A stretch of 55,102 nucleotides of DNA from IMG/VR virus record IMGVR_UViG_3300037742_000050, positions 1 through 55,102 of that record, one strand, 5' to 3'. Below the pieces are notes generated by a model. It made no database searches. It was not told where the DNA came from and worked only from the letters and a program-made list of their open reading frames with translations. The stretch is from a virus (taxonomy: Duplodnaviria > Caudoviricetes). The position numbers and the translations under genes were made by a program. This document shows, piece after piece, positions 1 to 54,352 of this stretch. The number at the start of each line of letters is the position of its first letter. The first letter of the stretch is position 1.

Positions 1-116
1 CCCCAGGGCCAGGGGTGTAGGATCTGGAGGTCGAGTGACCTCAGGTCCGAGCCGGGACCGGGGACTATGAAGGACTATGAAATATTTCAAGAGCGAGAGG
101 AGATGATTCTTGGTGT
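1..116 (+). repeat. Inverted repeat copy 1 (promoter spacer, -10, 5' leader, SD, TTG start)
   Basis: Exact reverse complement of 52672-52787; contains TAGGAT, GGACTATGAA x2 (62-81), palindrome TGAAATATTTCA (78-89), SD GAGAGGAG. Confidence 0.95.
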
Positions 117-799
117 CGACCATTGACAGGGACCTGCTTGAGAGCGTGGAAGCCACGTTCCACGCGGCAGGTGACGATGCCTGGGACGTGCCACCTACGT
201 TCCTGGTGTTCAGCCACGTCCCGGCGCGCACGGAGGACGAGAAGGGGAGAGTCGTCGCCGGTGTCGCCGGTGAGCATGTCGCCCGACTTTTCAACGACCC
301 AGTGGAGGTCATCGAGGCGATCGGGGGGACCTTGTTTCATGCACTGAGTAATCCCGACGCTTTTCCTAACCCGATGAGCCTCCTGAGACCGTCGCAAAAT
401 GATCTTAATGACTCCGGTCTCAGCGACCTCGATATGACCTCATCGAAGATCATTGGCGCTGCTTACGTCGTGGAGATGTATGCGATGCCCCCGGCCGAGT
501 ACACCAAGGCGATAGCGGCGATGACCCAGGACGAACGGAACGCGGTACGGGAGATGTACGGTCGCATTCCGATCACACACCTCACCAACAAACCGTCCGA
601 GCAGCGCGTGCTGTACGCCGTGGACACCAAGCAGTACATCCACACCCTCAGTCGCGTACGTGGCGAGGAAACCGTTCGCTACGATCAACCAACACAGCCA
701 ATGGAGATTCCTGGTCAACATCAAGGTAACCGGGACATGATCGCCACCCTTGTCGCCACCCTTGACGTGATCCTCCAGATCGAGGCGACCGCGAAATGA
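110..799 (+). CDS. Hypothetical protein, 229 aa
   Basis: TTG 7 nt after GAGAGGAG; long ORF with protein-like composition. Confidence 0.75.
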   Translation: MVSTIDRDLLESVEATFHAAGDDAWDVPPTFLVFSHVPARTEDEKGRVVAGVAGEHVARLFNDPVEVIEAIGGTLFHALSNPDAFPNPMSLLRPSQNDLNDSGLSDLDMTSSKIIGAAYVVEMYAMPPAEYTKAIAAMTQDERNAVREMYGRIPITHLTNKPSEQRVLYAVDTKQYIHTLSRVRGEETVRYDQPTQPMEIPGQHQGNRDMIATLVATLDVILQIEATAK

Positions 800-936
800 A
801 CCACGGTCCGGTCGCCACTGCCGCGCGCCGGTTTACCGTGATCCTCCTCGTGGTTACGGTTATCGCGTTCGTTAGCAAATGCAACGAGGAGAACTACCGG
901 CCGTGGCCGCAACCCTCATCGGGGTCCACGCGGTAA
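796..936 (+). CDS. Small membrane protein, 46 aa
   Basis: ATGA overlap with upstream stop; hydrophobic stretch FTVILLVVTVIAFV. Confidence 0.55.
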   Translation: MNHGPVATAARRFTVILLVVTVIAFVSKCNEENYRPWPQPSSGSTR

Positions 937-969
937 GCTGCCCCATATCGTGCTCCTCACGATGCGCTG

Positions 970-1015
970 AAACCCCTCACTTCTGTTGGTCACTCATCTC
1001 GAAGTGGGGGGTTTC
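970..1015. terminator. Stem-loop, possible terminator
   Basis: GAAACCCCTCACTTC...GAAGTGGGGGGTTTC inverted repeat. Confidence 0.55.
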
Positions 1016-1032
1016 GCCATATCCTCAGTTAC

Positions 1033-1320
1033 ATGGAAGAGACTCGTTGTCCCTGCGAGGACATGACAGACGAGCAGCTTGACGCTGCGGTTGCTCAGTT
1101 CGTTGGGGAAGGCCGCATCCCGGCCGCTCTCGGTCGGTACTGGACGCGTGGTAAAGGAGCCGCCAAGATCCGCTGGGGGACTGACGGCTCCTTCAGCCGG
1201 TGTGTGAGGCTACTTCGGCCCAAGGTGAAGAACCTTGGGATCGACATCAAGGGCTTGTGCGCGAATCTCCACAAGAGGGCAACAGGCGAATGGCCCGCCG
1301 AAAAGGGGGTTGACTCGTAA
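1033..1320 (+). CDS. Small conserved actinophage-type protein
   Basis: YWTRGKGAAKIRWGTDG...RC...GLCANLH..ATGEWP motif, recalled from actinophage proteins. Confidence 0.65.
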   Translation: MEETRCPCEDMTDEQLDAAVAQFVGEGRIPAALGRYWTRGKGAAKIRWGTDGSFSRCVRLLRPKVKNLGIDIKGLCANLHKRATGEWPAEKGVDS

Positions 1321-1570
1321 TGGGGGTGGGTCGAACTGGCCCGTCGTTCGGTTTCAGGCTGGGTGGGGGCATAGGTGGTCTACTTCGCTGATGGGGGGCG
1401 GGTAAGGTTTGGCAAGTCGGCTGGAATTGGGACGGAGAAGGCCCGGCTCGGTATGTCGTTGTGTAAGTGTGGTGGGGTGGGGGGACTCGACTTGTCGTTA
1501 CGGGGGCTGGGTTGAAAGGGAATAGGACGTCGGAAAAGACAGGGTTAGGCCCGGCTCGGTTTGTCGGTAC
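1321..1570 (-). repeat. Array A: about 7 GAC-NN-(NCC-NN)n units, candidate guide ncRNA array
   Basis: Minus strand e.g. GACAA ACCGA GCCGG GCCTA ACCCT GTCTT; plus-strand GTC anchors ending at 1345,1380,1418,1457,1496,1531,1565; no long ORF. Confidence 0.8.
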
Positions 1571-1575
1571 GTTAC

Positions 1576-1716
1576 TTAATCCCCTTCCGCTATGGCGGCC
1601 AACACGATTGCGATGACGACAACGCCCACGCCCAGCATGGTCAGTCCGGCCAATAGCAGCAGTGCTACGCCGGCCAGCGTCAGGACGATCGCGGTACCCA
1701 TTAGTTTGCCGTTCAC
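1576..1716 (-). CDS. Small membrane protein
   Basis: Almost wholly hydrophobic MGTAIVLTLAGVALLLLAGL...; start GTG 1716 or ATG 1701. Confidence 0.6.
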   Translation of the reverse strand: MNGKLMGTAIVLTLAGVALLLLAGLTMLGVGVVVIAIVLAAIAEGD

Positions 1717-1717
1717 T

Positions 1718-1819
1718 TCACGCCCCTGCGCCTGGTACGGAGCAAGAGTACAGGGCCATCGCGAAGCCGAGGATGGCGCCGAGCAGGACAGTGGCAGCGA
1801 GCCAGTGTCGGACTTGCAT
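1718..1819 (-). CDS. 33-aa membrane/secreted peptide
   Basis: MQVRHWLAATVLLGAILGFAMALYSCSVPGAGA; SD AAAGGGA upstream. Confidence 0.55.
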   Translation of the reverse strand: MQVRHWLAATVLLGAILGFAMALYSCSVPGAGA

Positions 1820-1858
1820 CTTGAGTCATCCCTTTCGTGATCGGAGACGGGTACGACT

Positions 1859-1911
1859 AGTGTACCATCCCCTCCCCGGGGGTTGCAACGGACGGCAAAC
1901 AGTCCTATACT
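1859..1911. promoter_or_regulatory. Divergent SigA-type promoters sharing palindromic -35 TTGCAA (1883-1888)
   Basis: Rightward TTGCAA-17-TATACT with ATG 7 nt later (leaderless); leftward TTGCAA-18-(TGG)TACACT. Confidence 0.75.
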
Positions 1912-1918
1912 GAGCCCC

Positions 1919-2461
1919 ATGCCCGCATCGAGAGACTACGCCTCCGAGATGGACTCGGTCCTCGCACAGTTCATCTCCCCGGAAGAGAACTACGTCCTGA
2001 GGGACGTGGCCGCCAAGGTCATCGCCTGGTGCGAGGAGCACGACCCTGCCCTCCTCGAAGGGTGGCTACGACTCCAGGCCCAGGACCTGGTATTCCATAC
2101 CCTTTCCCGCAATGAGCAGAAGGAGCGGCAGCGCAGCGAGCGGGGTACCAAGCATGCTGTGTTCGCTGCCGCGCTTGCCTCAGCGGTCAACGGCGACTAC
2201 GCCCCCGCCAAAGAGCAACTGTCCATATTGGACGCTCGGTATTCGGTTGGCGCCAAGTCGAACCGGAAGAAGTACCGGGCCATGACCCGCGAGGAAGTAT
2301 TGACCATAGCCGGCAGCTACGGCCGGATGGAAGCCCACTCTCGGGTACGGCGACTGTTCCACGAGATGGTGGCCGAACGCATCGGCGACGGGGAGACCGT
2401 GGGCGACAAGTTTGATGCCACCCAGTTGTACAGCATCCAGCGGGAACTGGGTATCGACTAA
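1919..2461 (+). CDS. Uncharacterised mostly helical protein (180 aa), candidate partner of Cas7-like gene
   Basis: Leaderless ATG; stop TAA overlaps first GACTA of array B. Confidence 0.75.
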   Translation: MPASRDYASEMDSVLAQFISPEENYVLRDVAAKVIAWCEEHDPALLEGWLRLQAQDLVFHTLSRNEQKERQRSERGTKHAVFAAALASAVNGDYAPAKEQLSILDARYSVGAKSNRKKYRAMTREEVLTIAGSYGRMEAHSRVRRLFHEMVAERIGDGETVGDKFDATQLYSIQRELGID

Positions 2462-2845
2462 CCCTTCCGATCCGTCCCAGCCTGACTATCCAACCCTACC
2501 CAATCCTGCTTCGACTAACTCGCCCGCTCCAGACCGACTAACCCCGCCCGGCTCTTCTGGCCCCACCTCAGCCGACAGGCCGCCCCTCTTCTCTCCAGGG
2601 TCGACGGACTCCACCCCGCCCGACCTATCCGACTATCCCGGCCCACTCGCCTCCATTCCACCCCTGTCCAGGTCGCCCGACCAGCCTCCCCATGTCACCT
2701 CCATACCTGCCCAAGTCGCCTGACTGGGCCGCCCTATGCCACCCTTCTCGACTGACCCACTCACGCCGTATCGACCCGTGATGACAGACCCAACCTTGCC
2801 ACCCCAGCCGACGACGACAAGCCGTCCCTTGCCCCCTCCCCCCAA
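2456..2845 (+). repeat. Array B: 12 GAC-NN-(NCC-NN)n units, candidate guide ncRNA array
   Basis: GAC anchors 2456,2484,2513,2536,2574,2603,2631,2679,2722,2750,2783,2816; 5-nt CC periodicity. Confidence 0.85.
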
Positions 2846-2879
2846 TAAACAACAACAACCGAAAGGAGAAAGAGCGCAA

Positions 2880-3590
2880 ATGTTCGAGCAGTACCGCAAC
2901 CAGGTGTGGCCCTTGGAATTCGAAGGCACCATCAAGGCCACCCGTATCTGTGGCGGCATCCCCAACGACCCTAATATCGCCAAGTCCTGGCTGGAGAAGA
3001 AGCTTGGGGTCACCGATGACGAGCAGCTTCAGCGGCTCGTACTGGAAACGATGATGCAGCGCGAGGGCACGACCCGCGACGAGGCAGTGAAGGAGGTTAT
3101 CCAGAAGACATCGGTGAACGGTTTCAAAGCCGACGAGCTTGGCCTGTACGTCGAGGGCCGGCAACTCAAGGCATGCCTGAAGGAAGCCGTGTCTGTAGCT
3201 ATCGCCTCAAAGAAGCTGGTAGCAACCGGTTGGGGGACCACTAAGAAATGGATCACCAACTATTTCCCGGAGCACGTCTTTGTTGTCGAGGACACATTGT
3301 ACCTGCTCGATCAGGACGGTAAACACATCACCGAGCGGCCAACGCCGACCCAGCGGTTCGTGTCCACGTATCGCGGCAACGCCATCAGCTACGACGAGGT
3401 GATTCCTGAGGCGTACATCAAATTCCGGGTCATCTCCGACCACCCGTTCACCGAGAAGCAATGGGCCACCCTGTGGGTCACTGCCGAACAGCAGGGACTT
3501 GGTGCCAACCGTAGTCAGGGGTACGGGCGTTTTGAGGTGGTCGCCTGGAACCAGGTCCGTGACGACACGGAGAAGGTCAAGACAAGCTGA
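2880..3590 (+). CDS. Stand-alone Cas7/RAMP-superfamily protein (236 aa)
   Basis: SD GAAAGGAG 2861-2868; LYVEGRQLKACLKEA resembles the RAMP IPGSSLKGxxR segment; C-terminal glycine loop GLGANRSQGYGRFEV. Confidence 0.8.
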   Translation: MFEQYRNQVWPLEFEGTIKATRICGGIPNDPNIAKSWLEKKLGVTDDEQLQRLVLETMMQREGTTRDEAVKEVIQKTSVNGFKADELGLYVEGRQLKACLKEAVSVAIASKKLVATGWGTTKKWITNYFPEHVFVVEDTLYLLDQDGKHITERPTPTQRFVSTYRGNAISYDEVIPEAYIKFRVISDHPFTEKQWATLWVTAEQQGLGANRSQGYGRFEVVAWNQVRDDTEKVKTS

Positions 3591-3600
3591 CTCTCAAAAG

Positions 3601-3637
3601 GGGGCACGGGACATCATGTAACGATGCTCCGTGCCCC
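3601..3637 (+). other. Hairpin between Cas7-like stop and array C (processing/stability element?)
   Basis: GGGGCACGG...CCGTGCCCC 9-bp perfect stem plus inner CATC/GATG. Confidence 0.65.
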
Positions 3638-4072
3638 GTCACGACAACCCATACCTCTCCGCTCCGTCATGACAAGCCACACCTCTTCGCCCCGTCACGA
3701 CAATCCATGACGTTCCGTCCCGTCGCGACAAGCCATACCTCTCCGCCCCGCATCGTCTGGACCATCCGATTCAGTACCCCACCTGCCCAAACCGACTTGC
3801 CCAGCCGGTCCAGCCCTGACCGACAGACCCACCCCGCCTATGTCGCACCGACGAGCCGAGCCGTCCCTGACCTGACCGACCTGACAAGCCGCGCCCTTTC
3901 CCTCCACTGACTACCCCGACAGACCGAGCCGTGCGCCGTCCGTACCACCCCAAGTGGTCGACAGTCCCAATTGGTCCGGTCCGCATCTCGCTGACTATCC
4001 CGGTCATGCCGCGCCACTCTTAGCGACAAGTCTTGCCCGCCCGGCCCGCTCTCCCCCGCACCACAGGGACAA
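3638..4072 (+). repeat. Array C: about 13 GAC-NN-(NCC-NN)n units, candidate guide ncRNA array
   Basis: GAC anchors 3643,3671,3699,3727,3760,3794,3822,3850,3883,3918,3960,3993,4025,4068; first four units nearly identical at 28-nt spacing. Confidence 0.85.
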
Positions 4073-4073
4073 G

Positions 4074-4110
4074 CGAAACCCCCTCCAGGAGCGCCCTGGA
4101 GGGGGTTTCG
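4074..4110. terminator. Strong hairpin, probably bidirectional terminator
   Basis: 16-bp perfect stem CGAAACCCCCTCCAGG/CCTGGAGGGGGTTTCG between convergent units. Confidence 0.85.
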
Positions 4111-4126
4111 TGGTACAGGTGACAGG

Positions 4127-5008
4127 TCAGCCTGGTCGACGGGCGTCCCACGACGGTAGGCGCTTGTCGTCCCGCTCGCCCTTGTTGTACTCGTTGGTGA
4201 GTACGAACGCGACCGCGTCCCGGCTCCTGTTACGCATCGTTGTGCGGAACGTGTTCGCCGCGCCGATGATGCCGGACGGGCCGCCCGGATACTTGGACAG
4301 CTTGTCGATCATGATCTTGTCGATCACCTGTTCCGCGTACCGCTCCAGCATGTGGAACAGGCCGCCGAGAATCCGGTAGTCCATCGAATCGTTCTGCCCG
4401 TTCCAGGCTTTGGTAAGGATGTCGATGGTTCGTTCCGCGACCACCGGATCGACCCGGTACATGTTCTCCAGGGTCCGGATAGCTGCGAAGCGGTACTCTC
4501 CGGGCTGCAACGTGATCGTCCAGTTCCGCTTGACGAGCATGTCGTAAATGCGCCGGGTGGCCCGGTGGCCGGCGACGAGTCGCGCCCGGAAGATGTCCAC
4601 TGGGGACGGTCGCTTCGTCGCGTTGAGCAACGTGAACAGGAATGCTTCCTGCCGCCGGGTCAGTCCATTGTAGACGTTCGCGGTGACGCGCTCATCCTCA
4701 AGTCCCTGCCGCATGAACAACTCACGACGATGCTGTCCATCGACCATGCTGTATGTGCCGTTGGGACGCCGGTTGAGGGTGACGACACCCACAGCCTGGC
4801 GGCTGAAGTTGGCGATCATCTCGTTGACACGGGCGTTGTCCAGCTTGCGCTGAACGGTCACATCCACAACGGTGTCACCGATACGGACCTCACGAACCTC
4901 GGGCTCCCCGAAGCCGAGGTCGTCAGGGTCGAGTTCAGCTTCGAATTCGACTACGGCCTCGTTCAGTGTTACCGGGGTGGCCTCGTCCTCGATGTGCTCC
5001 TCACTCAA
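4127..5008 (-). CDS. ParB/Srx-like N-terminal domain protein (DGQHR motif)
   Basis: VQR...YSMVDGQHR...EAFLFTLLN. Confidence 0.75.
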   Translation of the reverse strand: MSEEHIEDEATPVTLNEAVVEFEAELDPDDLGFGEPEVREVRIGDTVVDVTVQRKLDNARVNEMIANFSRQAVGVVTLNRRPNGTYSMVDGQHRRELFMRQGLEDERVTANVYNGLTRRQEAFLFTLLNATKRPSPVDIFRARLVAGHRATRRIYDMLVKRNWTITLQPGEYRFAAIRTLENMYRVDPVVAERTIDILTKAWNGQNDSMDYRILGGLFHMLERYAEQVIDKIMIDKLSKYPGGPSGIIGAANTFRTTMRNRSRDAVAFVLTNEYNKGERDDKRLPSWDARRPG

Positions 5009-5549
5009 GGGTTTGTGCCTCCTTCCTTCGTTTTTGCAGTTCCATGAATCGCCCTTTCATCTGGGCGATGTCTCGCATGTGCTTTGCGATGTTTTTAACG
5101 AAGGCTGCTATCTCTTCGTCGGTAAGCCCTTCATTGAGGTTCCGGACGTTCTTTGCCAGTTCGGCGTCGTCGCGGAGTCTCTCAAGTAAGGTCTGCATCG
5201 CTTGACGCTGTACATGCAGGCTCCGGAACCGTGGGTTCTGGGCCGCGAACTCCCTGATCAGGTTGTTGCCCTTGGGGGCCCCGATCTTTCCTGCCTCGAT
5301 CTGCTTGACGATACTTCGGGCGTACTCCCCGATCTCATCGCTCCGCTCTGCGGTCCGGAAAATGTACGTCACGGTAACAATCAGCCATTCCGGCATGTCG
5401 TGCAGATCGGCGAACTTACGTGCTCTCGACGGGCTGGCTGATCGTTCTTCGCTGTCCCGGAACACCTCCCATTGCAGGTAAAGGTCCCGCCACGACTTGA
5501 ATGTTTTCGGGAGGGGGGTTGGTGGTGCCCCTCTTCCTATTCCTGCCAA
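5001..5549 (-). CDS. Hypothetical helical protein
   Basis: SD AAGGAGG; overlaps both neighbours in an operon. Confidence 0.7.
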   Translation of the reverse strand: MAGIGRGAPPTPLPKTFKSWRDLYLQWEVFRDSEERSASPSRARKFADLHDMPEWLIVTVTYIFRTAERSDEIGEYARSIVKQIEAGKIGAPKGNNLIREFAAQNPRFRSLHVQRQAMQTLLERLRDDAELAKNVRNLNEGLTDEEIAAFVKNIAKHMRDIAQMKGRFMELQKRRKEAQTLE

Positions 5550-5752
5550 TCGTGCCGCACCTCCTTCTCCGGTGTCTTGAACCGGTTGACCTGTTCGGGA
5601 GGGATGCGCCAGGATGGCCGCTTACCTTCACCTGCGATGTTGACTGCGACGATCTCGCCAGCGTGGATCAGGTTGTACACGTGCGTGACTGAGCAGTTCA
5701 GTTCCCGTGCGACCTCCCGCACGGTCATCAGGTCGGTAGGTGGACGATCCAA
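5537..5752 (-). CDS. Excisionase/MerR-like helix-turn-helix protein
   Basis: LMTVREVARELNCSVTHVYNLIHAGEI...WRIP. Confidence 0.85.
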   Translation of the reverse strand: MDRPPTDLMTVREVARELNCSVTHVYNLIHAGEIVAVNIAGEGKRPSWRIPPEQVNRFKTPEKEVRHDWQE

Positions 5753-5812
5753 AGTGTTCCCTCCTTTCCGTTGATCTCACGGAAGGGTAGCATACGTTTC
5801 AAGCGTTGTAAA

Positions 5813-8395
5813 CTACGCCGGTCTCCAGGGATACCCGTTGCCGGTGATCATCGTGTTCGGGGAGTGCCTGAGCCCGATCCACTCCTGTGCGCTTGAACGT
5901 ACGAAGCCCAGTGCCTCAAGGCGTCTGGCGAACTTGCGGGGACCGATCGGTGGCCCGACCCGGTTCGCTTGGACCCAATTCTCGTACAACTGATAGATGC
6001 TGGAGTTCTTGACCGTGGCGTCCTTTTCGAGGACCAGCACCTTCTCCTCCACCACGGAATCGATGAACTGCGATACCGTGTCGTTCTCTTTGCGGTACGT
6101 GTTCCCCGCCTCGATCACCGCTTCCGGCTCAACCAGCCCCAATGGGCCCTCGAAGTCCCGCATCCCGGCGATGAGCCAGTTCAGGATACCGTCCGCCTCG
6201 GCAGTCAACTTGTCGAGAAGCTCCGGATCATCCCGCTCACCACGGAACTCCTGCTCGAACCGGATCACCTTCAACCGGTCCCAGGTGGCCGTGTCCTCCG
6301 GGTTGACCTTGGGGTGGTGGTTGGTAGCCATGAACAGCACGAACTGGGGCAACCACTCCTGCGGGGATTCGTACAGTCCCCGTGAGTTCATCTTGTCCTG
6401 GCCGGTGACCCGCTTGACAAGCTCCTCGTCCATGATCGTTGACTCGGAGGACTCCGAGGTCGCCACGAATCGGCGCCCGCGCAGGTGGTGCAGGTCCGTG
6501 GAAGGCGAGGACCCGTCCCGCTTGAACCGGAACAGGGTTGCCGAAGCAGTGGCCGCGTAGTCACCGAACGTGTGGCCCAACGATTCGATGAACTTCGATT
6601 TACCGGAGCGGGGTGGACCGGAAATGATCGCCATAGCACGCCGGTTCGGCTTCCCCCGCAACGCGTACCCGGAGATCCGCTGCAAGAACCCGCGCAACTC
6701 GGGCTCAGGCAACACCTCCTCGATGAACTTGTCCCAGTGCGGGGACTCCGCGTCGGGGGTGTAGCTCGCGTCCATCTGCTTGGTCAGCATGTACTTCGGG
6801 TGTGCCGGCAACAGCTTTGGCATGTCCCCCGGCGTCCCGAGGTCCAACACCCCGTTCTTCACGCCCACGTACCGGGGATGCTTGTCGAACTCGTCCGCTG
6901 TAACCGTTGTGTCCGGGTGGGCCCGGAAGTTTGCCACTGCTGCGTTGGTCCTCGCGTCCGAGTGCGACACCTTCGCCCACTTCGCGAGTTTCTCGCCACG
7001 CTCATCGCCGGCATCGATGAGTTGCTGTGCTTGCTCCTGAACGATGCTGGCCATCTGTGATGCCGCACGCTTTACCGGGTCAGGGTTGTGGAGGATCTCC
7101 CACCGGGAACCGTTGTACCGGGCCCATTTCTTCGCGTCGGCGACGTACTTGAAGATGTCCCCGTACAAGGCGGCCATCCGATCCCCGTTGCCAGTGTCGT
7201 GCTGTGGCTGCCAGGTAAGGTCCGGTGCCTCGGTGGCCGGCTGCCACGAATCCGGCGTCCCATCGGGCTCCGGGCGTCGTAGTTGCAGCGTGTCCGGCAA
7301 CGGGACCGACGTACGTGGCTCCCCGAAGCCCTTGCCAGCTAACGATTTCGCTGCCGCCTTCAGGTCCCCGTTATGGTGGATCAGGGCGTACACGTACCCC
7401 TTGGTATACGGGCCACCAGCCGGGATATGAGCATCCGCGTCGGAGAACATGTACAGCCGGTCCCGGTCCCCGTCACGGCCGGTGGTGGCGCTGTGCCCGT
7501 CACGGCGTTCCTTGCCGGACCGGGTCCAGTACGTTGTGATGCCTTGAGTGTGGTGGACCTGCCACCCCAGTCCCCCGAGGAGGTCGGCGTGCTCCCAGTC
7601 GGTGGCACTTTCGAACTGGTCCAGTGGTGTAGTCCCAGCGACCGGGGTCGGTACCTTGTCGTCACTGTCACGGTTATCGGCTGGTCTGAGCTTCAAGCTG
7701 GCGCTGGCGAACGCCGCGACGAGGGTCTCTACCCGGTAGCTGGGCCCGGTGGCCGAGAGGACTTCGCACGCGCGCTCAAGTCCCGCCTTCCGGTTCACCG
7801 TCCCCGGCACACGAAGCACGCGCGAGAGGTCACCGCACTGGGTGCCGTAGAACATCCCGAGTCGCTCGGCACCTTCCCCGAGGCAGCGCTGCCATCCGGT
7901 GCTCAACTCCTGGAGCGCGGACAGTTGCTCTTGGTTACCGGGGTCGAGATGGTATGGCTCGGACAACAACCAGTAGGGGTAGAACCCGCCTCCTGACCCC
8001 ACCCATAGTGTTGGTTCGGGTAGGCCGGCTTCATGGATGATCAGCTTTGCTTGATCCCAGGAGGCCGGCAGTGGCTTGGTGGTCTTGTGGCCAGGGCCCG
8101 CGATATCGATGTCCGCCCATAGTCCGGGGAAGCTGACCGAGTCGCTGTCCCTGCCCCGTCCTTCAACTACATTGTCACTGATCGTTGTAACCCGGAGATA
8201 GATACCCTCGCGGCCGAGTCGATCCAGTTCAGCGACATATTCACCGGCATCTTGGAATGCAATGTGGCTGTCCAGGGAAAACGCCCTGCCGGCCCAGTCG
8301 CCGGTGGAGCAGATATGAATGTTTCCGTGTGAATCGCCGTGTAGGTATTCAAGCCACGATCGAACAGCTTCAATATCGAATTGGCTTGATGCCAT
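5813..8395 (-). CDS. DNA primase/helicase (primase domain plus P4/D5-type SF3 helicase)
   Basis: WADID, SGGG..YW, RVLRVPGT primase motifs; Walker A GPPRSGKS; VKRVTGQD, MATNHHP. Confidence 0.9.
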   Translation of the reverse strand: MASSQFDIEAVRSWLEYLHGDSHGNIHICSTGDWAGRAFSLDSHIAFQDAGEYVAELDRLGREGIYLRVTTISDNVVEGRGRDSDSVSFPGLWADIDIAGPGHKTTKPLPASWDQAKLIIHEAGLPEPTLWVGSGGGFYPYWLLSEPYHLDPGNQEQLSALQELSTGWQRCLGEGAERLGMFYGTQCGDLSRVLRVPGTVNRKAGLERACEVLSATGPSYRVETLVAAFASASLKLRPADNRDSDDKVPTPVAGTTPLDQFESATDWEHADLLGGLGWQVHHTQGITTYWTRSGKERRDGHSATTGRDGDRDRLYMFSDADAHIPAGGPYTKGYVYALIHHNGDLKAAAKSLAGKGFGEPRTSVPLPDTLQLRRPEPDGTPDSWQPATEAPDLTWQPQHDTGNGDRMAALYGDIFKYVADAKKWARYNGSRWEILHNPDPVKRAASQMASIVQEQAQQLIDAGDERGEKLAKWAKVSHSDARTNAAVANFRAHPDTTVTADEFDKHPRYVGVKNGVLDLGTPGDMPKLLPAHPKYMLTKQMDASYTPDAESPHWDKFIEEVLPEPELRGFLQRISGYALRGKPNRRAMAIISGPPRSGKSKFIESLGHTFGDYAATASATLFRFKRDGSSPSTDLHHLRGRRFVATSESSESTIMDEELVKRVTGQDKMNSRGLYESPQEWLPQFVLFMATNHHPKVNPEDTATWDRLKVIRFEQEFRGERDDPELLDKLTAEADGILNWLIAGMRDFEGPLGLVEPEAVIEAGNTYRKENDTVSQFIDSVVEEKVLVLEKDATVKNSSIYQLYENWVQANRVGPPIGPRKFARRLEALGFVRSSAQEWIGLRHSPNTMITGNGYPWRPA

Positions 8396-8547
8396 ACGAC
8401 AACCCCTCTCGATATGTGGGCGAGTCCCCCGAGTTCTTGCGCCACACCGGAAACGTGGATCAGATCGTACGCCCTCCGCTCGGCCTTCGGTACCATCCTC
8501 TCAGGAACGGAGGACCGCACCATCCCCCGCTCCCACTCCCCAGAAAT

Positions 8548-8600
8548 AGGGGAACCCCCGAGGCTGAGTGTCTTGTCGACGCCCCTCGGGGGTTTCTCCT
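8548..8600 (-). terminator. Stem-loop after SSB-like gene
   Basis: AGGGGAACCCCCGAGG...CCTCGGGGGTTTCTCCT. Confidence 0.6.
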
Positions 8601-8612
8601 ATATGAGGACGA

Positions 8613-9404
8613 TCAGTAGCCGTACTGCTGCTGCTCCGTCTGCGGATTCGGTACTTGTTGCTGGTTGTTCTGGTGCTGCTGTTGCAGTCGCTCCAGGATT
8701 GACTGCTGCGCCGGGTTAGCACCCTGAGGCGGCAGCGGAGGCGTCTGCTGTTGATACTGCTGCTGCGGTGCTGGCCGGGACCAGGCCGGCTGCTCCTGCG
8801 GGGCCCCGTGCCACGGCGGCTGCTGCGTCGGCTGCTGGCCCCACTGCTGCTGGGGCTGCTGCTGTTGGCCGCTCCACGCTCCCTGCTGCTGGCCCCACTG
8901 CTGCTGCGGAGGAGGGCCCTGCTGCCCGTACCCCTGCTGGTACTGCTGCTGGGGCTGCGGTGCCGGAACCGTGTACTCGCGTGGCTCGGACGGCTTGAAG
9001 TCCGGGTTCGCCACACCCCACGTATTGGCCTTCTCCACGGCGGCTGCCTCATGAGTCAGCGAGATGAAGATCCACGGCGGTTGACCCATGGTCGCCTGAC
9101 CCTTGCCGATCGTACCGAGGAGCGGTCCCTGACCGATCCGCTGCCGGAACGCCTGGATCAGTCGCGACTGCCGCCACAACTGGGCCCGGTACACCTTCGG
9201 GTTGCCCTCGTCGTCAGGCATCTCCAAGGTCACCACGTCAACACTGATCGCGTCATCGACCTTGTCAGGGCGGGAGAACTTGGTCGGTGGCGCCGGATTC
9301 ACGTGCTGGATCGGCCACACGATGATCAACGTCCCAGCAAGCTGGTCCGGATTGATGTACTCGCGGGCCAGTTCACCCGGCTCTTGGAAGCTGAATGGTT
9401 CCAT
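8613..9404 (-). CDS. Probable ssDNA-binding protein with Gln/Pro-rich tail
   Basis: Beta-rich N-domain plus about 110-aa Q/P/G/W low-complexity tail; lies in replication module. Confidence 0.55.
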   Translation of the reverse strand: MEPFSFQEPGELAREYINPDQLAGTLIIVWPIQHVNPAPPTKFSRPDKVDDAISVDVVTLEMPDDEGNPKVYRAQLWRQSRLIQAFRQRIGQGPLLGTIGKGQATMGQPPWIFISLTHEAAAVEKANTWGVANPDFKPSEPREYTVPAPQPQQQYQQGYGQQGPPPQQQWGQQQGAWSGQQQQPQQQWGQQPTQQPPWHGAPQEQPAWSRPAPQQQYQQQTPPLPPQGANPAQQSILERLQQQHQNNQQQVPNPQTEQQQYGY

Positions 9405-9705: not shown

Positions 9706-10147
9706 TCAATGTGTAATCAGTTATCCCTTCCTGTTTGATAAACGACATCACCCAGTCACGGGCACCCGAATCATCTTCACGTGGGATGCCGGTGTTGTCG
9801 GCGACCTGCTGCCACAACCAGTCCGGTGCGTCGGACCGATACAGGACCCAGGCGAGCGGATCTCGTTCGTACTGCACAAGGAACTCAGTCATCTGCTTTG
9901 CATCTCCTCGATTGTCGATAACCTGCTTCCATTTGAGGGCTTCATCGACTGACTTGTGTAGCGTGACAGTTAATCCACCACACTTCGCAAGTAGTGCGTA
10001 TCTCCCTTCTCCTTGAATCCAGACCGCGTAAGACCAGATGCATTTGGCAAAAGTTCGGAAAGAGCGGTGACGAGCACTGCATTCATGGAAGCGATAGGCT
10101 GCAATCCTCTCGTTCAGTGGCTCACTGAACCTCATCGTCCTCCACAT
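9656..10147 (-). CDS. Hypothetical protein
   Basis: Fills operon gap. Confidence 0.55.
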   Translation of the reverse strand: MWRTMRFSEPLNERIAAYRFHECSARHRSFRTFAKCIWSYAVWIQGEGRYALLAKCGGLTVTLHKSVDEALKWKQVIDNRGDAKQMTEFLVQYERDPLAWVLYRSDAPDWLWQQVADNTGIPREDDSGARDWVMSFIKQEGITDYTLSGPKPNEILKVQSEID

Positions 10148-11190
10148 CCATCCACTCCGGGTCCCCGCTCCGGATCGCGGGGGTCAAAGAACGGGCACCA
10201 CACACAGTTACGTCCCGGTGACGCCTCAATCTCGATCCAGCGTTGAGGGTTGTTCACGATGTCCAGTTCCATCAGCCTCCCGGCGAGCCGGTACATGCGC
10301 TCCAGGGCCCGCTCCGCGATGCTTCGATCGTAGGGCCAGGCGTAGGCCCGCATGTCCCCGAGCCAACCATTGCGGGGCACGAACACCAGCGCGACCTCGT
10401 TGACTGGGATACCCGCGTTCTCGTACCCCAGACCGTACAGGTGGATCTGGGTGATGTAGCCCTCCGGTGGCCCCTGCGCCATGATCTTCTTCATCGCATC
10501 GGTGCCGGCCGACTTCAGGTCTACCACAGCCCCCCGTGGGATGTAGTACAGATCAGAGTGTCCCGAGATCATCGGGTCCACGTCAAGCTTCTGCTCGGTC
10601 AGCCAGTTCCGGCTCCCGGTCGCCTCCTGGTAGGCCAGGACCGCCCTCTCGGACCACGAGTGGATCGCCGTACCCACGATCGCCGGCCACGGGTCCATGC
10701 GCTTGTTCACCGTGGCGAGCCCGGCGAGCTTCATCCCAAGTCTGCGATCGCACGGATCACCTAGTTCAGACGGGCCGGGAGCCATCTGTTTCGATCTCGG
10801 GGAGTTGCGTTCGGCCCACAGGAACACGTCGGTCAGTTCGTGCTTCAGCGGGTCCTCGCCTGGTACGTCCTGAAACTCCATCGGCCGCCTATCGCAGAAT
10901 GGGTGCAAGTCAAAGCCCTCGCTTAAATGGACTTGATCCAGTCTTACACCACACCTACGACATAAACTCGCGTCCTTTGGTAGAGGGTCCGTGTCGCGGA
11001 ACGGTCTGAGATGACGTGGCCGGGGTCGCATCCCCTTGACCCGGTCCATCGGGAACGGGATGCCATGAGCCCGGATGGAGCAGTCCTCGCACTGCTGTAC
11101 CTCGATGTATTCAGGGATGGCGTAGCAACGTTTACCGCAGTCCGCGCACTTCGTCTCGTAGAGTCCAGCGAATGCGTGCTTGAGATCCAC
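10132..11190 (-). CDS. Cas4-like/RecB-family PD-(D/E)XK exonuclease with N-terminal Cys motifs
   Basis: PSELGDPCDRR, GTAIH, SGHSD...VDLKS, QIHLY, C..CPF. Confidence 0.85.
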   Translation of the reverse strand: MDLKHAFAGLYETKCADCGKRCYAIPEYIEVQQCEDCSIRAHGIPFPMDRVKGMRPRPRHLRPFRDTDPLPKDASLCRRCGVRLDQVHLSEGFDLHPFCDRRPMEFQDVPGEDPLKHELTDVFLWAERNSPRSKQMAPGPSELGDPCDRRLGMKLAGLATVNKRMDPWPAIVGTAIHSWSERAVLAYQEATGSRNWLTEQKLDVDPMISGHSDLYYIPRGAVVDLKSAGTDAMKKIMAQGPPEGYITQIHLYGLGYENAGIPVNEVALVFVPRNGWLGDMRAYAWPYDRSIAERALERMYRLAGRLMELDIVNNPQRWIEIEASPGRNCVWCPFFDPRDPERGPGVDGCGGR

Positions 11191-44406: not shown

Positions 44407-44838
44407 TCACACCTTGAACTGGACATCACGACGACGCCGGGCCACAAGGAACAGGACCACACCGACAACGAGAACCGCCGCGCCGGACGCAAGGAGCCAG
44501 GTGGTCTTGGAGCCGGTTATCGGTAGGACTGGTGTCGGGGTTGTCGATTGGGTTGGTGAGGGCACGGTGGGGGAGACGGGGGTAGTCGATGGGGCCGAGG
44601 TGGAAGGGGTAGTCGGAAGCGTACTGGGTGGTGAGGATGGAGGAATGGTGGGAGGGGTAGTCGGAGGGGTAGTCGGAGGCGTCGAGGAAGGAGTACTGGG
44701 GGCCGACGACGATGGCGGTGTGTCTCCGTCGTAGTCGCCACCAGCGATGCCCGGAGATCCGAGCGACATGCCGACCATGACGGTACCGAGGAAGATGCCA
44801 CCGAGGCCGGCGACCTTGAGTCTGTTGAGCACGTTCAC
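44407..44838 (-). CDS. LPxTG sortase-anchored Pro/Ser/Thr-rich surface protein
   Basis: Signal peptide, PTT repeats, LPITG, TM helix, RRRR tail. Confidence 0.85.
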   Translation of the reverse strand: MNVLNRLKVAGLGGIFLGTVMVGMSLGSPGIAGGDYDGDTPPSSSAPSTPSSTPPTTPPTTPPTIPPSSPPSTLPTTPSTSAPSTTPVSPTVPSPTQSTTPTPVLPITGSKTTWLLASGAAVLVVGVVLFLVARRRRDVQFKV

Positions 44839-53572: not shown

Positions 53573-54150
53573 GGGGAAGGTAGCTTCGCCTCAAGCTCCC
53601 GCACCTGCTGCTCCACCTGCTGCCGGGCCCGGAGGCTGACCACAGCCTCCTCTTCGGGTTCCTCGGCGGCAGCTTTGGGCGCGTCGAGCATCCGGTACAG
53701 CTTCATGATCCGGTCGAGGGTGCGTAGTCCTAGCTCCATGAACCGGGGGTCCTGGCGTTGCTCCAGTTCCCCGCGCTCGATCTCCGCTTCAGTGATCTTC
53801 CACAGCCACTCCAGGCGGGTGATCAACTGGCCGCGTACCATCGGCTGCTGCTCCCGAACCTGATCATCGGTCAACTCGTGAGCAAGGACCGGCAGCGTCG
53901 TCCCAGCGGGAACCTGGGGAGGCAGGGGGAACAGTTCCATAGCAACATGCATATCAACATGCACAGAATCCCGCAGCGACCAGAAAGCCTGAACCCCTGC
54001 CCCCCGGCATTCAAATTTGCCACCACACGGAACTACATATTGAAGAGGAGATCCATTTATACATGTAAATGTATAAGTGTGGGTTGGTGGGTTGTCCGCC
54101 CTTTTCCCTGTTGCTGTAACGTTTTCACGTTTGCCTGGCGGGCGGATCAT
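53563..54150 (-). CDS. Possible terminase small subunit-like helical protein (true start probably near 53940-53962)
   Basis: RLE.LW...LDRIMKLYRMLDAP resembles actinophage TerS-like C-termini; weak call. Confidence 0.4.
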   Translation of the reverse strand: MIRPPGKRENVTATGKRADNPPTHTYTFTCINGSPLQYVVPCGGKFECRGAGVQAFWSLRDSVHVDMHVAMELFPLPPQVPAGTTLPVLAHELTDDQVREQQPMVRGQLITRLEWLWKITEAEIERGELEQRQDPRFMELGLRTLDRIMKLYRMLDAPKAAAEEPEEEAVVSLRARQQVEQQVRELEAKLPSPQG

Positions 54151-54352
54151 GGGTCATGGGTCATCATGGGATCATGGGATCATGATCATCCATCGATGGT
54201 CATGATCATAGGGGTATGGCCATATGGTCTACCCCCCATCATGGGGTAGGTCCCTATCCCCGTATCGGGTACCTGGGGTACCTGGGTATCCCAGGCTATC
54301 CCACTTGGGGGTATGGCCCTAGGGTCTAAGGCCCTCCCTGGGGTCATGATCC
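54145..54352. repeat. Low-complexity (G)ATCATGG/GTCATGG repeats and short palindromes
   Basis: Many CATG-centred units, GGGTACC x2, TACCCC...GGGGTA. Confidence 0.7.

What the first reader, a model, noticed from the sequence alone, without database searches (positions are those of the whole stretch)
2456..2845. Array B unit lengths follow a 5n+3 rule
Seen: anchor spacings are 28,29,23,38,29,28,48,43,28,33,33; nine of eleven equal 5n+3. Example: GACTA ACC CT TCC GA TCC GT CCC AG CCT / GACTA TCC AA CCC TA CCC AA TCC TG. Array C gives 28,28,28,33,34,28,28,33 and so on. A period of 5 is incompatible with codon structure and differs from the 6-nt Cas7 step of class 1 CRISPR complexes. Inference: guides of variable length, quantised by subunit number.
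Basis: seen in the sequence. Interest (0 to 1): 0.85.

Follow-up and report, generated by a model that had tools for sequence, protein, structure and literature searches.

The report
Phage VIPR guide-RNA array
The odd 5n+3 spacing is real: this stretch is an array of short guide RNAs built from five-letter repeats, sitting next to a small CRISPR-like protein in a phage, a kind of system first described in 2026 that phages appear to use to silence rival phages.

Summary
Even so, 9 of 11 spacings in one mod-5 class was reached in 0 of 2000 random placements of 20 anchors. The rule recurs in 133 independent arrays from other phages.

Each unit is GAC plus m pentamers of the form NN-x-C-C. This gives a sharp 4.75-nt Fourier peak, not a 5.0 peak.

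The ORF downstream (2880-3590) folds like Cas7-family RAMPs. It is a distant homolog of the phiSUSP1 Vipr protein (hhalign E 5.3e-5). The ORF upstream (1919-2461) is a conserved partner.

This matches VIPR systems (bioRxiv 10.64898/2026.04.26.720920): a minimal RAMP, an accessory gene, and flanking pentanucleotide-repeat guide RNAs whose NN dinucleotides read DNA while skipping every third base.

In relatives, four units match conserved, in-frame sites of other phages' vipr genes under that code, one at 24 of 24 bases.

Still open: the transcribed strand, processing at GAC, and the targets of this window's own units. The C-based scaffold and the tail-less, GAC-punctuated layout may be a variant.

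The parts
1883..1911 (+). Promoter-like site TTGCAA-17-TATACT, just upstream of the ATG at 1919
   Evidence: Consensus scan, 9 of 12 matches. This is a pattern match only; function is not shown.
1919..2461 (+). Conserved partner gene (180 aa), candidate Vap accessory protein
   Evidence: Homologs at 23-31% identity lie directly upstream of the array and vipr in 47 loci. The AlphaFold model is mostly helical (pLDDT 89, pTM 0.57). There is no significant PDB fold match and no Pfam, PHROG, PADLOC or NCBIfam family. No similarity to the 146-aa gene next to phiSUSP1 vipr was found.
2456..2845 (+). Array B: 12 back-to-back units, each GAC plus 4-9 pentamers NN-x-C-C. Unit starts are 2456, 2484, 2513, 2536, 2574, 2603, 2631, 2679, 2722, 2750, 2783 and 2816. 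The first GAC is the last codon of the upstream gene.
   Evidence: C makes up 190 of 390 bases. The Fourier peak at 4.75 nt has power 9.48. The unit parse is printed.
2863..2868 (+). Ribosome-binding site AAGGAG, 11 nt before the vipr ATG, inside an A-rich spacer (2846-2879)
   Evidence: Read directly from the sequence.
2880..3590 (+). vipr: minimal RAMP protein (236 aa) with the G-rich loop GLGANRSQGYG at residues 206-216
   Evidence: AlphaFold pLDDT 74, pTM 0.70. Foldseek gave 54 PDB matches at E <= 1e-3; every match listed is a chain of a type III or type VII CRISPR effector complex (best 8z4l_F, E 6.8e-6, TM 0.43-0.53). All 11 weak PADLOC hits are RAMP families. hhalign against the phiSUSP1 Vipr family gave E 0.0013 and E 5.3e-5, probability 66.7%, with 120 sequences on each side. 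It is the only copy in the window.
3610..4070 (+). Array C: the same grammar. It includes four 28-nt units at 3633-3750 that are still 78% alike.
   Evidence: TRF period 28 x 4.2. Fourier 4.75-nt power 6.64. Autocorrelation z is 6.4 at lag 5, 6.8 at lag 28 and 5.1 at lag 33. Chain 10 of 13, reached in 0 of 2000 random placements.
4074..4110 (.). Perfect 16-nt inverted repeat with a 5-nt loop, between the array C operon and a convergent ParB-like gene. Probably a two-way terminator.
   Evidence: the repeat finder I14, 100% complementary. The terminator role is inferred.
1281..1585 (-). Array A: a possible degenerate third array, C-rich on the minus strand. Its units resemble units of array C.
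   Evidence: Strong GC skew. Inverted matches to array C at 74-89% (I1, I2, I5, I6, I9, I10). Periodicity is not significant (best power 3.2 at 4.9 nt, below the 95th percentile of 3.66). GAC spacings are 34, 35, 39, 39, 38, 35.

Best explanation
Array B is a guide-RNA (vrRNA) array of a VIPR system carried by a siphovirus-like phage, probably of an actinomycete.

The locus is: vap-like gene (1919-2461), array B, vipr (2880-3590), array C, hairpin.

Each unit is GAC followed by m pentamers. Two positions of each pentamer (NN) are free. The last position is almost always C, and the one before it usually is.

By analogy with the solved phiSUSP1 complex, one Vipr protomer would bind each pentamer. 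It would hold the fixed trinucleotide and present the NN dinucleotide.

The NN string reads double-stranded DNA with every third base skipped. It therefore follows codon positions 1 and 2 and ignores wobble. Binding would silence genes of competing phages, including their vipr genes.

Shown here:
- the grammar and its conservation;
- the RAMP fold and its homology to Vipr;
- the fixed orientation of the arrays relative to vipr;
- code-obeying matches of relatives' units to vipr genes.

Inferred:
- transcription of the vipr-sense (C-rich) strand;
- cutting or punctuation at GAC;
- one protomer per pentamer;
- silencing as the outcome;
- that this window's own units are active guides.
For: Grammar.
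- A matrix built on 550 CGACT anchors from non-window arrays has C at +8, +13, +18, +23, +28 and +33 in 95, 92, 88, 86, 81 and 77% of cases. Positions +9/+10, +14/+15 and so on are near-uniform, although the arrays are 49% C overall.
- The spacing rule is given.

Association with the genes.
- A C-rich array abuts the vipr start in 59 of 87 loci that have at least 400 nt upstream.
- After removing duplicates this is 50 of 75, against 1 of 75 with a G-rich array.
- A motif-only scan of IMG/VR found 58 stretches. Of the 34 in a C-skewed context, 24 hold g1 or g2 in the held stretch and 3 more hold vipr elsewhere in the record. Of the 24 non-skewed hits, none holds g1 or g2 in the held stretch.

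Protein.
-.
- The homo-oligomer model scored 0.63 against a best control of 0.00. Runs agree in at least 57% of contacts and partner pLDDT is at least 74. The calibration mark was reached by 20 of 30 pairs solved as one chain and by 1 of 23 single chains. Contacts are head-to-tail. This pass may reflect remembered Cas7 filaments.

Code.
- Among 261 guides with at least 7 NN, perfect sites under skips of 0, 1, 2 and 3 bases were found for 1, 7, 1 and 1 guides. Shuffled-order controls gave 0, 2, 0 and 3. Twelve further skip-1 shuffles gave 0 to 4.
- Four of the seven skip-1 guides hit one in-frame vipr site each, in 19, 21, 33 and 46 loci. In each case NN falls on codon positions 1 and 2.
- The L042 unit matches at all 12 NN (24 of 24 bases), and the next unit does not continue the match.

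Not coding.
- Indels between close array pairs are 16, 8, 1; 28; and 11, 1, 9, 73, 7, 84, 5, 10. Only 2 of these 12 are multiples of 3.

Literature.
- VIPR architecture, code and types.
- One protomer per repeat.
- Non-canonical repeat motifs.
Against: - No RNA data exist for this phage, so expression, strand and RNA ends are untested.
- No convincing target was found for any unit of this window. Short units hit at chance level. The 9-NN unit gave 18 IMG/VR stretches that collapse to 3 independent sites, about what chance predicts.
- With guides of at least 8 NN and up to 1 mismatch allowed, real and shuffled guides score alike (10 against 7 of 261). The code evidence therefore rests on four guides. 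They cover two regions of vipr and are not fully independent.
- The fixed trinucleotide is x-C-C, not the GGY of the characterised systems. The window's units have 4-9 repeats, not 9-16. There is no structured 3' tail.
- Homology to phiSUSP1 Vipr is distant: probability 18% with small alignments and 67% with large ones. Foldseek TM scores are only 0.43-0.53.
- Indels between relatives are not multiples of 5 either.
Confidence: 0.85

Rival explanations
1. It is a VIPR system, but the guide RNAs are transcribed from the opposite, G-rich strand. Units would then read as m pentamers G-G/A-S-N-N followed by GUC. This is close to the NNNGG or NNNNG repeats listed in the VIPR preprint, and the fixed part would sit at the 3' end, as in phiSUSP1.
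For: - All characterised VIPR scaffolds named in the text I read are G-based: GGY, NNNGG, YNNNG and NNNNG.
- Vipr reads the two guanines specifically in the solved complex.
- On the antisense strand the invariant base is G, and the fixed GUC follows the repeats, as a tail would (derived).
- Double-stranded DNA targets are the same for either strand, so the target matches do not decide between them (reasoning).
Against: - In 50 of 75 distinct loci the array abuts vipr with its C-rich strand in the vipr sense, against 1 of 75 the other way. The last CGAC lies a median of 43 nt before the vipr start, followed by a ribosome-binding site. This leaves little room for a separate promoter, so the sense strand of the array is probably transcribed as the vipr leader.
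- In phiSUSP1 the repeats lie on the same strand as vipr.
- In the hhalign alignment, the phiSUSP1 G-loop residues that read G1 and G2 (D177, W178) align to Ala and Asn/Ser in this family. The Arg that contacts the pyrimidine Y3 (R179) aligns to the invariant R211. That fits a scaffold whose third base, an invariant C, lies just 5' of NN.
- On the antisense strand that position would mostly be G, which the described pocket excludes.
- Non-canonical motifs ending in C (GAC/NN, CAC/NN) are reported.
Confidence: 0.2
2. It is a C-rich, G-poor untranslated spacer that works at the RNA level without guiding anything. Examples would be a Rho loading (rut) region that sets transcriptional polarity, or a sponge for an RNA-binding protein. 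The periodicity would be a by-product of slippage in short repeats.
For: - C makes up 49% and G 17% of array B.
- The region lies between co-oriented genes, with the C-rich strand in the sense direction.
- A local CCTGA x 4.2 microsatellite lies in array C.
- That C-rich, G-poor RNA is the classic Rho substrate is recalled knowledge, not tested here.
Against: - It does not explain the near-invariant C every 5 nt together with near-uniform NN positions.
- It does not explain the GAC punctuation and 5n+3/5n+4 spacing kept across phages whose neighbouring protein is only 35-53% identical.
- It does not explain the link to a RAMP gene.
- It does not explain the 24 of 24 code-obeying match to vipr genes.
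Confidence: 0.04
3. It is a protein-coding, proline-rich segment. This could be a linker, a separate Pro-rich ORF, or an N-terminal extension of the downstream protein.
For: - One frame is open from 2412 to 2723 and again from 2736 into the downstream gene.
- In L017 and L011 one frame is open across the whole array, from an ATG just after the upstream stop codon to a stop at the vipr ATG (read).
- 84 of 146 arrays have a fully open frame, against 63.6 expected from mononucleotide shuffles.
- Period-3 power in B is 1.57 (16 of 500 shuffles reach it).
- A real Pro/Thr-rich coding stretch with similar words exists at 44460-44760 on the minus strand.
Against: - Only 2 of 12 indels between close relatives are multiples of 3, and one is a clean 28-nt unit.
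- The anchor occurs in all three frames within one open frame (read).
- The dominant period is 4.75 nt, not 3.
- Stop codons are rare in any 49% C sequence.
- A strong ribosome-binding site precedes the ATG at 2880, which is where the homologs start.
Confidence: 0.02
4. It is an array of double-stranded DNA binding sites, such as iterons of a replication origin or a partition site. A D5-type primase-helicase and a ParB-like gene lie nearby.
For: - The primase-helicase lies at 5813-8395 on the minus strand.
- A ParB-like ORF lies at 4127-5008 on the minus strand.
- Direct repeats of 28 nt are present.
Against: - The primase and ParB-like genes are shared with only 4-5 of the related loci, whereas the arrays travel with g1 and g2.
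- Strand orientation relative to vipr is fixed at 50 to 1, which a duplex binding site does not require.
- A 5-bp step with free NN positions is not iteron-like.
- The code matches to vipr genes remain unexplained.
Confidence: 0.02

Closest known systems
VIPR type II, Escherichia phage phiSUSP1 (bioRxiv 10.64898/2026.04.26.720920 and 10.64898/2026.04.26.720927)
   Same: - A phage-borne two-gene locus: a small RAMP plus an accessory gene.
- Long flanking intergenic regions made of pentanucleotide repeats, each with a fixed trinucleotide and a free NN.
- Repeats on the same strand as vipr in phiSUSP1.
- A 1-nt-skip, wobble-aligned code.
- Guides aimed at other VIPR systems.
- Distant protein homology (E 5.3e-5).
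   Different: - The fixed trinucleotide is x-C-C with an invariant last C, not GGY.
- The G-loop residues that read the guanines are replaced.
- Units have 4-9 repeats in the window and mostly 5-10 in relatives, not 9-16.
- Units are joined by a bare GAC instead of a structured tail of about 40 nt.
- The protein is 236 aa, not 195 aa.
- The accessory gene shows no detectable similarity to the 146-aa gene next to phiSUSP1 vipr.
'Staggered' vrRNA arrays and the NNNGG / YNNNG / NNNNG repeat variants of other VIPR types (same preprint: methods and the fig. S18 legend)
   Same: - Units lie back to back, so the end of one marks the start of the next.
- Only one or two fixed bases per pentamer.
- Read on the other strand, this family would be NNNGG-like or NNNNG-like.
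   Different: I could read only the text and the legends. The figures, the taxa and data S4 were not visible. I therefore cannot tell whether this actinomycete-phage clade is one of the seven types, or on which strand such arrays were called. 'Actino' and 'Streptomyces' occur 0 times in the main text.
Non-canonical VIPR-like arrays found by entropy periodicity (bioRxiv 10.64898/2026.10.21.760802)
   Same: Arrays with a 5-nt period next to Vipr-like folds, with fixed trinucleotides other than GGY. Examples given include GAC/NN and CAC/NN, which also end in C.
   Different: The passages I read name GAC/NN, CAC/NN, WGT/NN and TGH/NN as examples. None is x-C-C/NN. They describe about 10 repeats and mention no GAC punctuation. 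Fig. S10 was not visible.
Cas7 backbone filaments of class 1 CRISPR effectors (Csm3, Cmr4, type VII Cas7)
   Same: - The best structural matches of the 236-aa protein.
- A G-rich loop.
- Predicted head-to-tail oligomer.
- Guide length set by the number of subunits.
   Different: - The step is 5 nt with sequence-specific scaffold bases, not a 6-nt step that is independent of sequence.
- No CRISPR repeat-spacer array was found by the repeat scans, and no other cas gene among the ORFs I scanned.
- The guide information is non-contiguous.
Type IV-B Csf complex (PMC7937560; I saw only the start of the abstract in search listings)
   Same: A Cas7-like filament assembled on non-CRISPR RNA.
   Different: There the RNA is heterogeneous and a Cas11 filament takes part. 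Here the RNA is a dedicated periodic array.

Membership tests
VIPR system | A Vipr protein: a minimal RAMP with an RRM core and a glycine-rich loop | tested here: met
   - Every Foldseek match listed is a chain of a type III or type VII CRISPR effector complex. 54 matches have E <= 1e-3; the best is E 6.8e-6.
- GLGANRSQGYG lies at residues 206-216, and G206, G208, R211, G214 and G216 are invariant in 24 sequences.
- hhalign against the phiSUSP1 Vipr family gave E 5.3e-5 and probability 66.7% over 141 columns.
- The thumb was not examined separately.
VIPR system | A minimal locus of vipr plus one accessory (vap) gene, mostly in viruses or proviruses, without a CRISPR array | tested here: met
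   - The 180-aa gene lies upstream of vipr in 47 related loci.
- The window is a phage with terminase, portal, capsid and tail genes.
- 9 of the 10 genome hits are actinomycetes.
- The repeat scans found no repeat-spacer array.
- Which of vap1-6 the gene is, if any, could not be tested.
VIPR system | Intergenic arrays of tandem pentanucleotides flanking vipr, each with a conserved trinucleotide and a hypervariable NN | tested here: met
   The period and the free NN positions are shown. The arrays abut vipr in 50 of 75 distinct loci. The conserved trinucleotide is x-C-C on the vipr-sense strand.
VIPR system | Canonical GGY/NN (YNNGG) repeat consensus | tested here: not met
   On the vipr-sense strand the pentamer is N-N-S-Y-C. 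On the other strand it is G-R-S-N-N. The preprints allow 'a related consensus' and non-canonical motifs.
VIPR system | 9-16 repeats followed by an invariable structured 3' tail (type II architecture) | tested here: not met
   The window's units have 4-9 pentamers and are joined by GAC only. This is closer to the 'staggered' arrays known to me only from a figure legend.
VIPR system | NN dinucleotides specify DNA targets with a 1-nt skip, and the skipped base falls on codon wobble positions | tested here: met
   - Met for relatives' units. Four guides hit in-frame vipr sites in 19 to 46 loci, one at 24 of 24 bases.
- Skip 1 gave 7 guides with perfect sites, against 1 each for skips 0, 2 and 3.
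- Inconclusive for this window's own units.
VIPR system | vrRNAs are expressed and co-purify with Vipr; one protomer per repeat | not testable with these tools
   No RNA run holds the stretch. The homo-oligomer model passes (0.63 against 0.00), but that is a prediction made without RNA.
Class 1 CRISPR-Cas | A repeat-spacer array with a 6-nt Cas7 step and several cas genes | tested here: not met
   The period is 5 nt with 3-nt punctuation. No 25-40-nt repeats alternating with unique spacers were found. Only one RAMP gene is present in the window.

The most novel reading that the evidence does not exclude
This actinomycete-phage clade may be a VIPR variant not yet described.

Its guides would be transcribed with vipr from the C-rich strand. 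They would use a pyrimidine-only scaffold (x-C-C/NN). The two guanine-reading G-loop residues of phiSUSP1 Vipr are lost, and only the pyrimidine-contacting arginine is kept.

Guides would be tail-less and packed back to back, separated by a bare GAC, in arrays of 0.2 to about 2 kb.

All four guides with identified targets are complementary to the coding strand of vipr. They could therefore pair with rival vipr mRNA as well as with DNA. One of them (in L089) also matches its own phage's vipr at 14 of 16 bases, which hints at autoregulation. The first preprint reports that it found no self-targeting.
Probability: 0.4. Interest if true: 0.75.

Novelty: new member of a known kind. Interest (0 to 1): 0.6.

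Why it matters
VIPR was described only in 2026 preprints and characterised in Escherichia and Pseudomonas phages. This window and about 130 related loci indicate that the same non-contiguous code operates in a large clade of phages and prophages. By the 9 of 10 genome hits that are actinomycetes, these are mostly actinomycete elements from soil and sediment.

In this clade the guides are aimed at the most conserved codons of rival vipr genes. The window's own vipr differs at exactly those sites (3-7 mismatches), as expected in an arms race.

The clade also offers a natural experiment on how a RAMP reads its scaffold. The fixed bases are C rather than GG, and the guanine-reading residues are replaced.

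Finally, it gives a simple rule for finding such arrays from sequence alone: GAC plus 5m, seen as a Fourier peak near 4.75-4.8 nt.

Tried and rejected
- Megablast of 1-8000 against phages: no match.
- Rfam on 1-6000 at E <= 1: no match.
- The search for related loci with single proteins (g2, g1, primase) in IMG/VR: nothing. It worked only with the alignment A1.
- Fourier power at exactly period 5 in B: below the shuffles, which is misleading.
- Folding the sequence on a 19-nt lattice: it only restates the 4.75-nt period, and lag 19 is not special.
- Pro-rich coding reading: rejected on indel lengths.
- Rho/rut, G-quadruplex or i-motif, iteron, type III toxin-antitoxin RNA and RNA anti-CRISPR ideas: considered, then dropped once the RAMP and the code matches appeared.
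- Fold search for the 180-aa protein: no match with E <= 0.001. Pfam on 29 family members: only single chance-level hits.
- Pfam on the 24 vipr family members: nothing consistent.
- Sequencing runs: no RNA holder listed. Laying contigs of three DNA runs only re-found the source assembly and short unrelated pieces.
- Targets of the window's own units: none convincing.
- Foreign guides against the window: 4 of 484 with a site at up to 1 mismatch, against 7 for shuffled controls, so nothing.
- Guides of at least 8 NN at up to 1 mismatch: real 10 against shuffled 7 of 261, so there is no bulk excess.
- Supplementary files and figures of the preprints could not be seen. They may already show this clade, its repeat logo and its strand.
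Full report
**What is at the coordinates.**

Region 2456-2845 is a 390-nt stretch with 190 C, 68 A, 66 G and 66 T. It lies between two ORFs on the + strand:
- ORF 1919-2461. Its last codon is the first GAC of the array.
- ORF 2880-3590, which is preceded by AAGGAG at 2863-2868.

The window is a whole IMG/VR virus record of 55,102 bp, estimated to be 93% complete. It carries terminase, portal, major head, major tail and tape-measure genes. It also carries a D5-type primase-helicase.

A second C-rich array (C, about 3610-4070) follows ORF 2880-3590. It ends at a perfect 16-nt inverted repeat at 4074-4110. A weaker one (A, 1281-1585) is C-rich on the minus strand.

**Checking the observation.**

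I tested whether the freedom to pick anchors explains the 5n+3 rule. It does not.
- The best chain through any GACs has 9 of 11 steps in class 3 mod 5.
- That was reached in 0 of 2000 random placements of 20 anchors (mean best 3.99, maximum 8).
- It was reached in 0 of 500 dinucleotide shuffles.
- Array C gives 10 of 13, also 0 of 2000.

Fourier power at exactly 5.0 nt is below the shuffles in B (0.18 against a mean of 0.66). The cause is that every unit adds 3 nt and shifts the phase. The coherent period is therefore (5m+3)/(m+1), about 4.75 nt.
- Power at 4.75 nt is 9.48 in B and 6.64 in C. The 99th percentiles of shuffle maxima are 3.79 and 3.74.
- Autocorrelation peaks at lags 5, 10, 28, 33, 38, 43 and 48.
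- In the whole window, all 26 sliding windows with power above 4.0 fall in arrays B and C.

Written out, each unit is GAC followed by pentamers such as TAACC CTTCC GATCC GTCCC. The C fraction by pentamer phase is 0.39, 0.21, 0.37, 0.71, 0.84.

**Relatives.**

The 236-aa product of ORF 2880-3590 has 284 homologs in the large protein collection. With an alignment of 24 of them (A1) I fetched:
- 80 metagenome loci;
- 39 IMG/VR loci;
- 10 genome loci, of which 9 are actinomycetes such as Nocardiopsis, Streptomyces, Actinomadura and Streptosporangium.

All are 23-53% identical to the window's protein.

The same kind of array is present in these loci.
- 63 of 121 loci have a strongly C/G-skewed region with power above 5 and a period of 4.6-5.0 nt. 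Of 85 such skewed high-power regions, 83 have that period.
- A C-rich array abuts the start of the homolog in 59 of 87 loci with enough upstream sequence. After removing duplicates this is 50 of 75, against 1 of 75 with a G-rich array.
- In 133 non-window arrays (57.8 kb kept after removing near-duplicates), consecutive CGACT spacings peak at 28/29, 33/34, 38/39, 43/44, 48/49 and 53. Mod-5 counts are 51, 28, 37, 148, 104.
- The genome loci give 6, 4, 2, 20, 18.
- A matrix on 550 anchors shows C at +8, +13, +18, +23, +28 and +33 in 95 to 77% of cases. The two positions after each lattice C are near-uniform.

A motif-first scan of IMG/VR gave 58 stretches.
- Of the 34 in a C-skewed context, 24 hold the upstream or downstream gene in the held stretch. 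Three more hold the RAMP gene elsewhere in the record. Seven have none; those seven records are 5-69% complete.
- Of the 24 non-skewed hits, none has either gene in the held stretch. Their whole records were not searched.

**Not coding.**

In some relatives one frame is open across the whole array (read). Open frames are somewhat more frequent than mononucleotide shuffles predict (84 against 63.6 of 146).

Against coding:
- Indels between closely related arrays are 16, 8, 1; 28; and 11, 1, 9, 73, 7, 84, 5, 10. Only 2 of these 12 are multiples of 3.
- The anchor occurs in all three frames.
- The dominant period is not 3.

**The neighbouring proteins.**

The AlphaFold model of the 236-aa protein has pLDDT 74 and pTM 0.70.
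- It matches 54 PDB chains at E <= 1e-3. Every match listed is a chain of a type III or type VII CRISPR effector complex, including a crystal structure of Csm3. The best is 8z4l_F (E 6.8e-6, TM 0.43-0.53).
- All 11 weak PADLOC hits are RAMP families.
- The family keeps a G-rich loop, GLGANRSQGYG in the window.
- A three-copy model predicts head-to-tail contacts. The score is 0.63 against a best control of 0.00. Runs agree in at least 57% of contacts, and partner pLDDT is at least 74. The calibration mark was reached by 20 of 30 pairs solved as one chain and by 1 of 23 single chains. This may reflect remembered Cas7 filaments.

The 180-aa upstream protein has homologs upstream of the array in 47 loci. 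Its model is mostly helical. It has no fold or family match.

**Comparison with what is known.**

A literature search led to bioRxiv 10.64898/2026.04.26.720920. I read its abstract, Results, Discussion, three Methods sections and several figure legends. It describes VIPR systems as follows:
- a minimal RAMP (Vipr) and an accessory gene (vap);
- long flanking intergenic regions encoding vrRNAs of 9-16 YNNGG repeats plus a 3' tail;
- NN dinucleotides that read double-stranded DNA with a 1-nt skip aligned to codon wobble;
- targets in competing phages, including other VIPR systems;

Three further preprints bear on this:
- 10.64898/2026.04.26.720927 (abstract and one section) shows one protomer per repeat. 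It names the residues that read G1 (D177), G2 (W178, R138) and Y3 (R179).
- 10.64898/2026.10.21.760802 (passages) reports non-canonical motifs such as GAC/NN and CAC/NN.
- 10.64898/2026.10.15.759431 (abstract only) reports solo vrRNAs that target relatives' VIPR systems.

I fetched phiSUSP1. Its GGT-NN repeats lie on the same strand as its 195-aa Vipr.

Profile comparison of the window's family with the phiSUSP1 family gave E 0.0013 with 24 against 26 sequences. With 120 against 120 sequences it gave E 5.3e-5 and probability 66.7% over 141 columns. The G-loops are aligned in both.

**Testing the code.**

I parsed units from all held arrays and masked the arrays in a 1.39-Mb database of held loci.

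For 261 guides with at least 7 NN, perfect sites under skips of 0, 1, 2 and 3 were found for 1, 7, 1 and 1 guides. Shuffled-order controls gave 0, 2, 0 and 3. Twelve more skip-1 shuffles gave 0 to 4.

Four of the seven skip-1 guides each hit one site inside the RAMP gene in many loci: 19, 21, 33 and 46. All hits are in frame, with the skipped base on wobble.
- The sites are nucleotide offsets 81 and 93, covering the conserved P-x-D...A..W segment.
- The other sites are offsets 438/441 and 459, covering QRFVHTFRG.

Including the dinucleotide right after GAC, the L042 unit matches at 12 of 12 NN (24 bases). The following unit does not continue the match. In this case the GAC-to-GAC unit is the guide.

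A 5-nt lattice matching a 3-nt lattice cannot arise from sequence homology. In bulk, however, guides of at least 8 NN at up to 1 mismatch do not exceed controls (10 against 7 of 261). The evidence therefore rests on these four guides, which cover two regions of the gene.

The window's own RAMP gene has 3-7 mismatches to these four guides. No convincing target was found for the window's own short units.

**Which strand.**

Double-stranded DNA targets are the same whichever strand is transcribed, so the matches do not decide this. I favour the C-rich strand, in the vipr sense, for four reasons.
- Orientation is fixed at 50 to 1. The last anchor lies a median of 43 nt before the start codon, followed by a ribosome-binding site. 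The gene is therefore probably transcribed through the array.
- phiSUSP1 has the same co-orientation.
- In the alignment, D177 and W178 of phiSUSP1 Vipr correspond to Ala and Asn/Ser here. R179 corresponds to the invariant R211. This fits a scaffold whose only invariant base is a pyrimidine just 5' of NN.
- Motifs ending in C are reported elsewhere.

The alternative is a G-based reading on the other strand. That would be close to the NNNGG or NNNNG repeats in the preprint. I give it about 0.2.

**Verdict.**

The thing itself is a member of a kind described in 2026 preprints.

It differs from the characterised members in its scaffold bases, its short tail-less units joined by GAC, its accessory gene and its G-loop residues. 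I could not see the preprints' figures or supplements. I therefore cannot say whether this clade is already among the seven types, and I file it as a new member. The variant reading is the novel case.

Noticed in passing
L089:5921-5963 and L089:6094-6113: One unit of this relative's upstream array matches its own vipr gene under the 1-nt-skip code at 7 of 8 NN (14 of 16 bases). The first VIPR preprint reports no self-targeting at 80% NN match or better. This might be autoregulation, or a side effect of aiming at a site conserved in rivals.
   Followed up: partly
window 44460-44760 (minus strand): A C-rich stretch that is real coding sequence: a Pro/Thr/Ser-rich segment containing CCGACTACCCCTCC repeats (TRF 12-nt x 2.4 at 44651-44679), followed by a hydrophobic segment. 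It shares words with the arrays. No sliding window there exceeded power 4.0 in the 4.4-5.25-nt band.
   Followed up: partly
window 1851-1867: An imperfect palindrome GGTACGACTAGTGTACC, containing CGACTA, lies just upstream of the promoter-like site at 1883-1911. It could be an operator for the vap-vipr operon.
   Followed up: no
L002 (Microcystis phage Mae-JY09, PP395641.1) 3423-4708 and 4702-5108: This cyanophage has a vipr homolog (31% identity) directly abutting a 179-aa gene, with no array between them. A C-rich stretch downstream of vipr shows a weak 4.75-nt signal (power 5.02). All of its genes are annotated as hypothetical.
   Followed up: partly
L193 (G005:C1:96595-97302, minus strand): A distant vipr-like match (E 2.5e-18) lies inside a 453-aa open frame in a 108-kb virus record that also has a motif-positive C-rich array. 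It may be a fused or extended form.
   Followed up: no
window 4127-5008 (minus) and 10132-11190 (minus): A ParB-like ORF converges on the VIPR operon. Further on there is an exonuclease with a weak match to a Cas4-domain exonuclease family (E 1.7e-6).
   Followed up: no
window 54144-54209: A run of GGATCATG-type 8-nt repeats (about 5 copies, overlapping period-6 and period-17 calls) lies near the right end of the record, in a G-rich region.
   Followed up: no
L005-L008, L083, L112, L125: Arrays in relatives reach 1.0-2.1 kb. Some loci carry four or five separate arrays within 4 kb (for example L112 at about 5080-5900 and 7440-8980), so these phages devote a sizeable share of their early region to guides.
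   Followed up: partly
L044:5609-6246 against L046:6747-7412: Two arrays that are 94.7% identical differ by one clean 28-nt indel holding exactly one unit (TGCTGCACGTTCCTGTTCCGACTAGCCC). This suggests that guides are gained or lost one unit at a time.
   Followed up: partly
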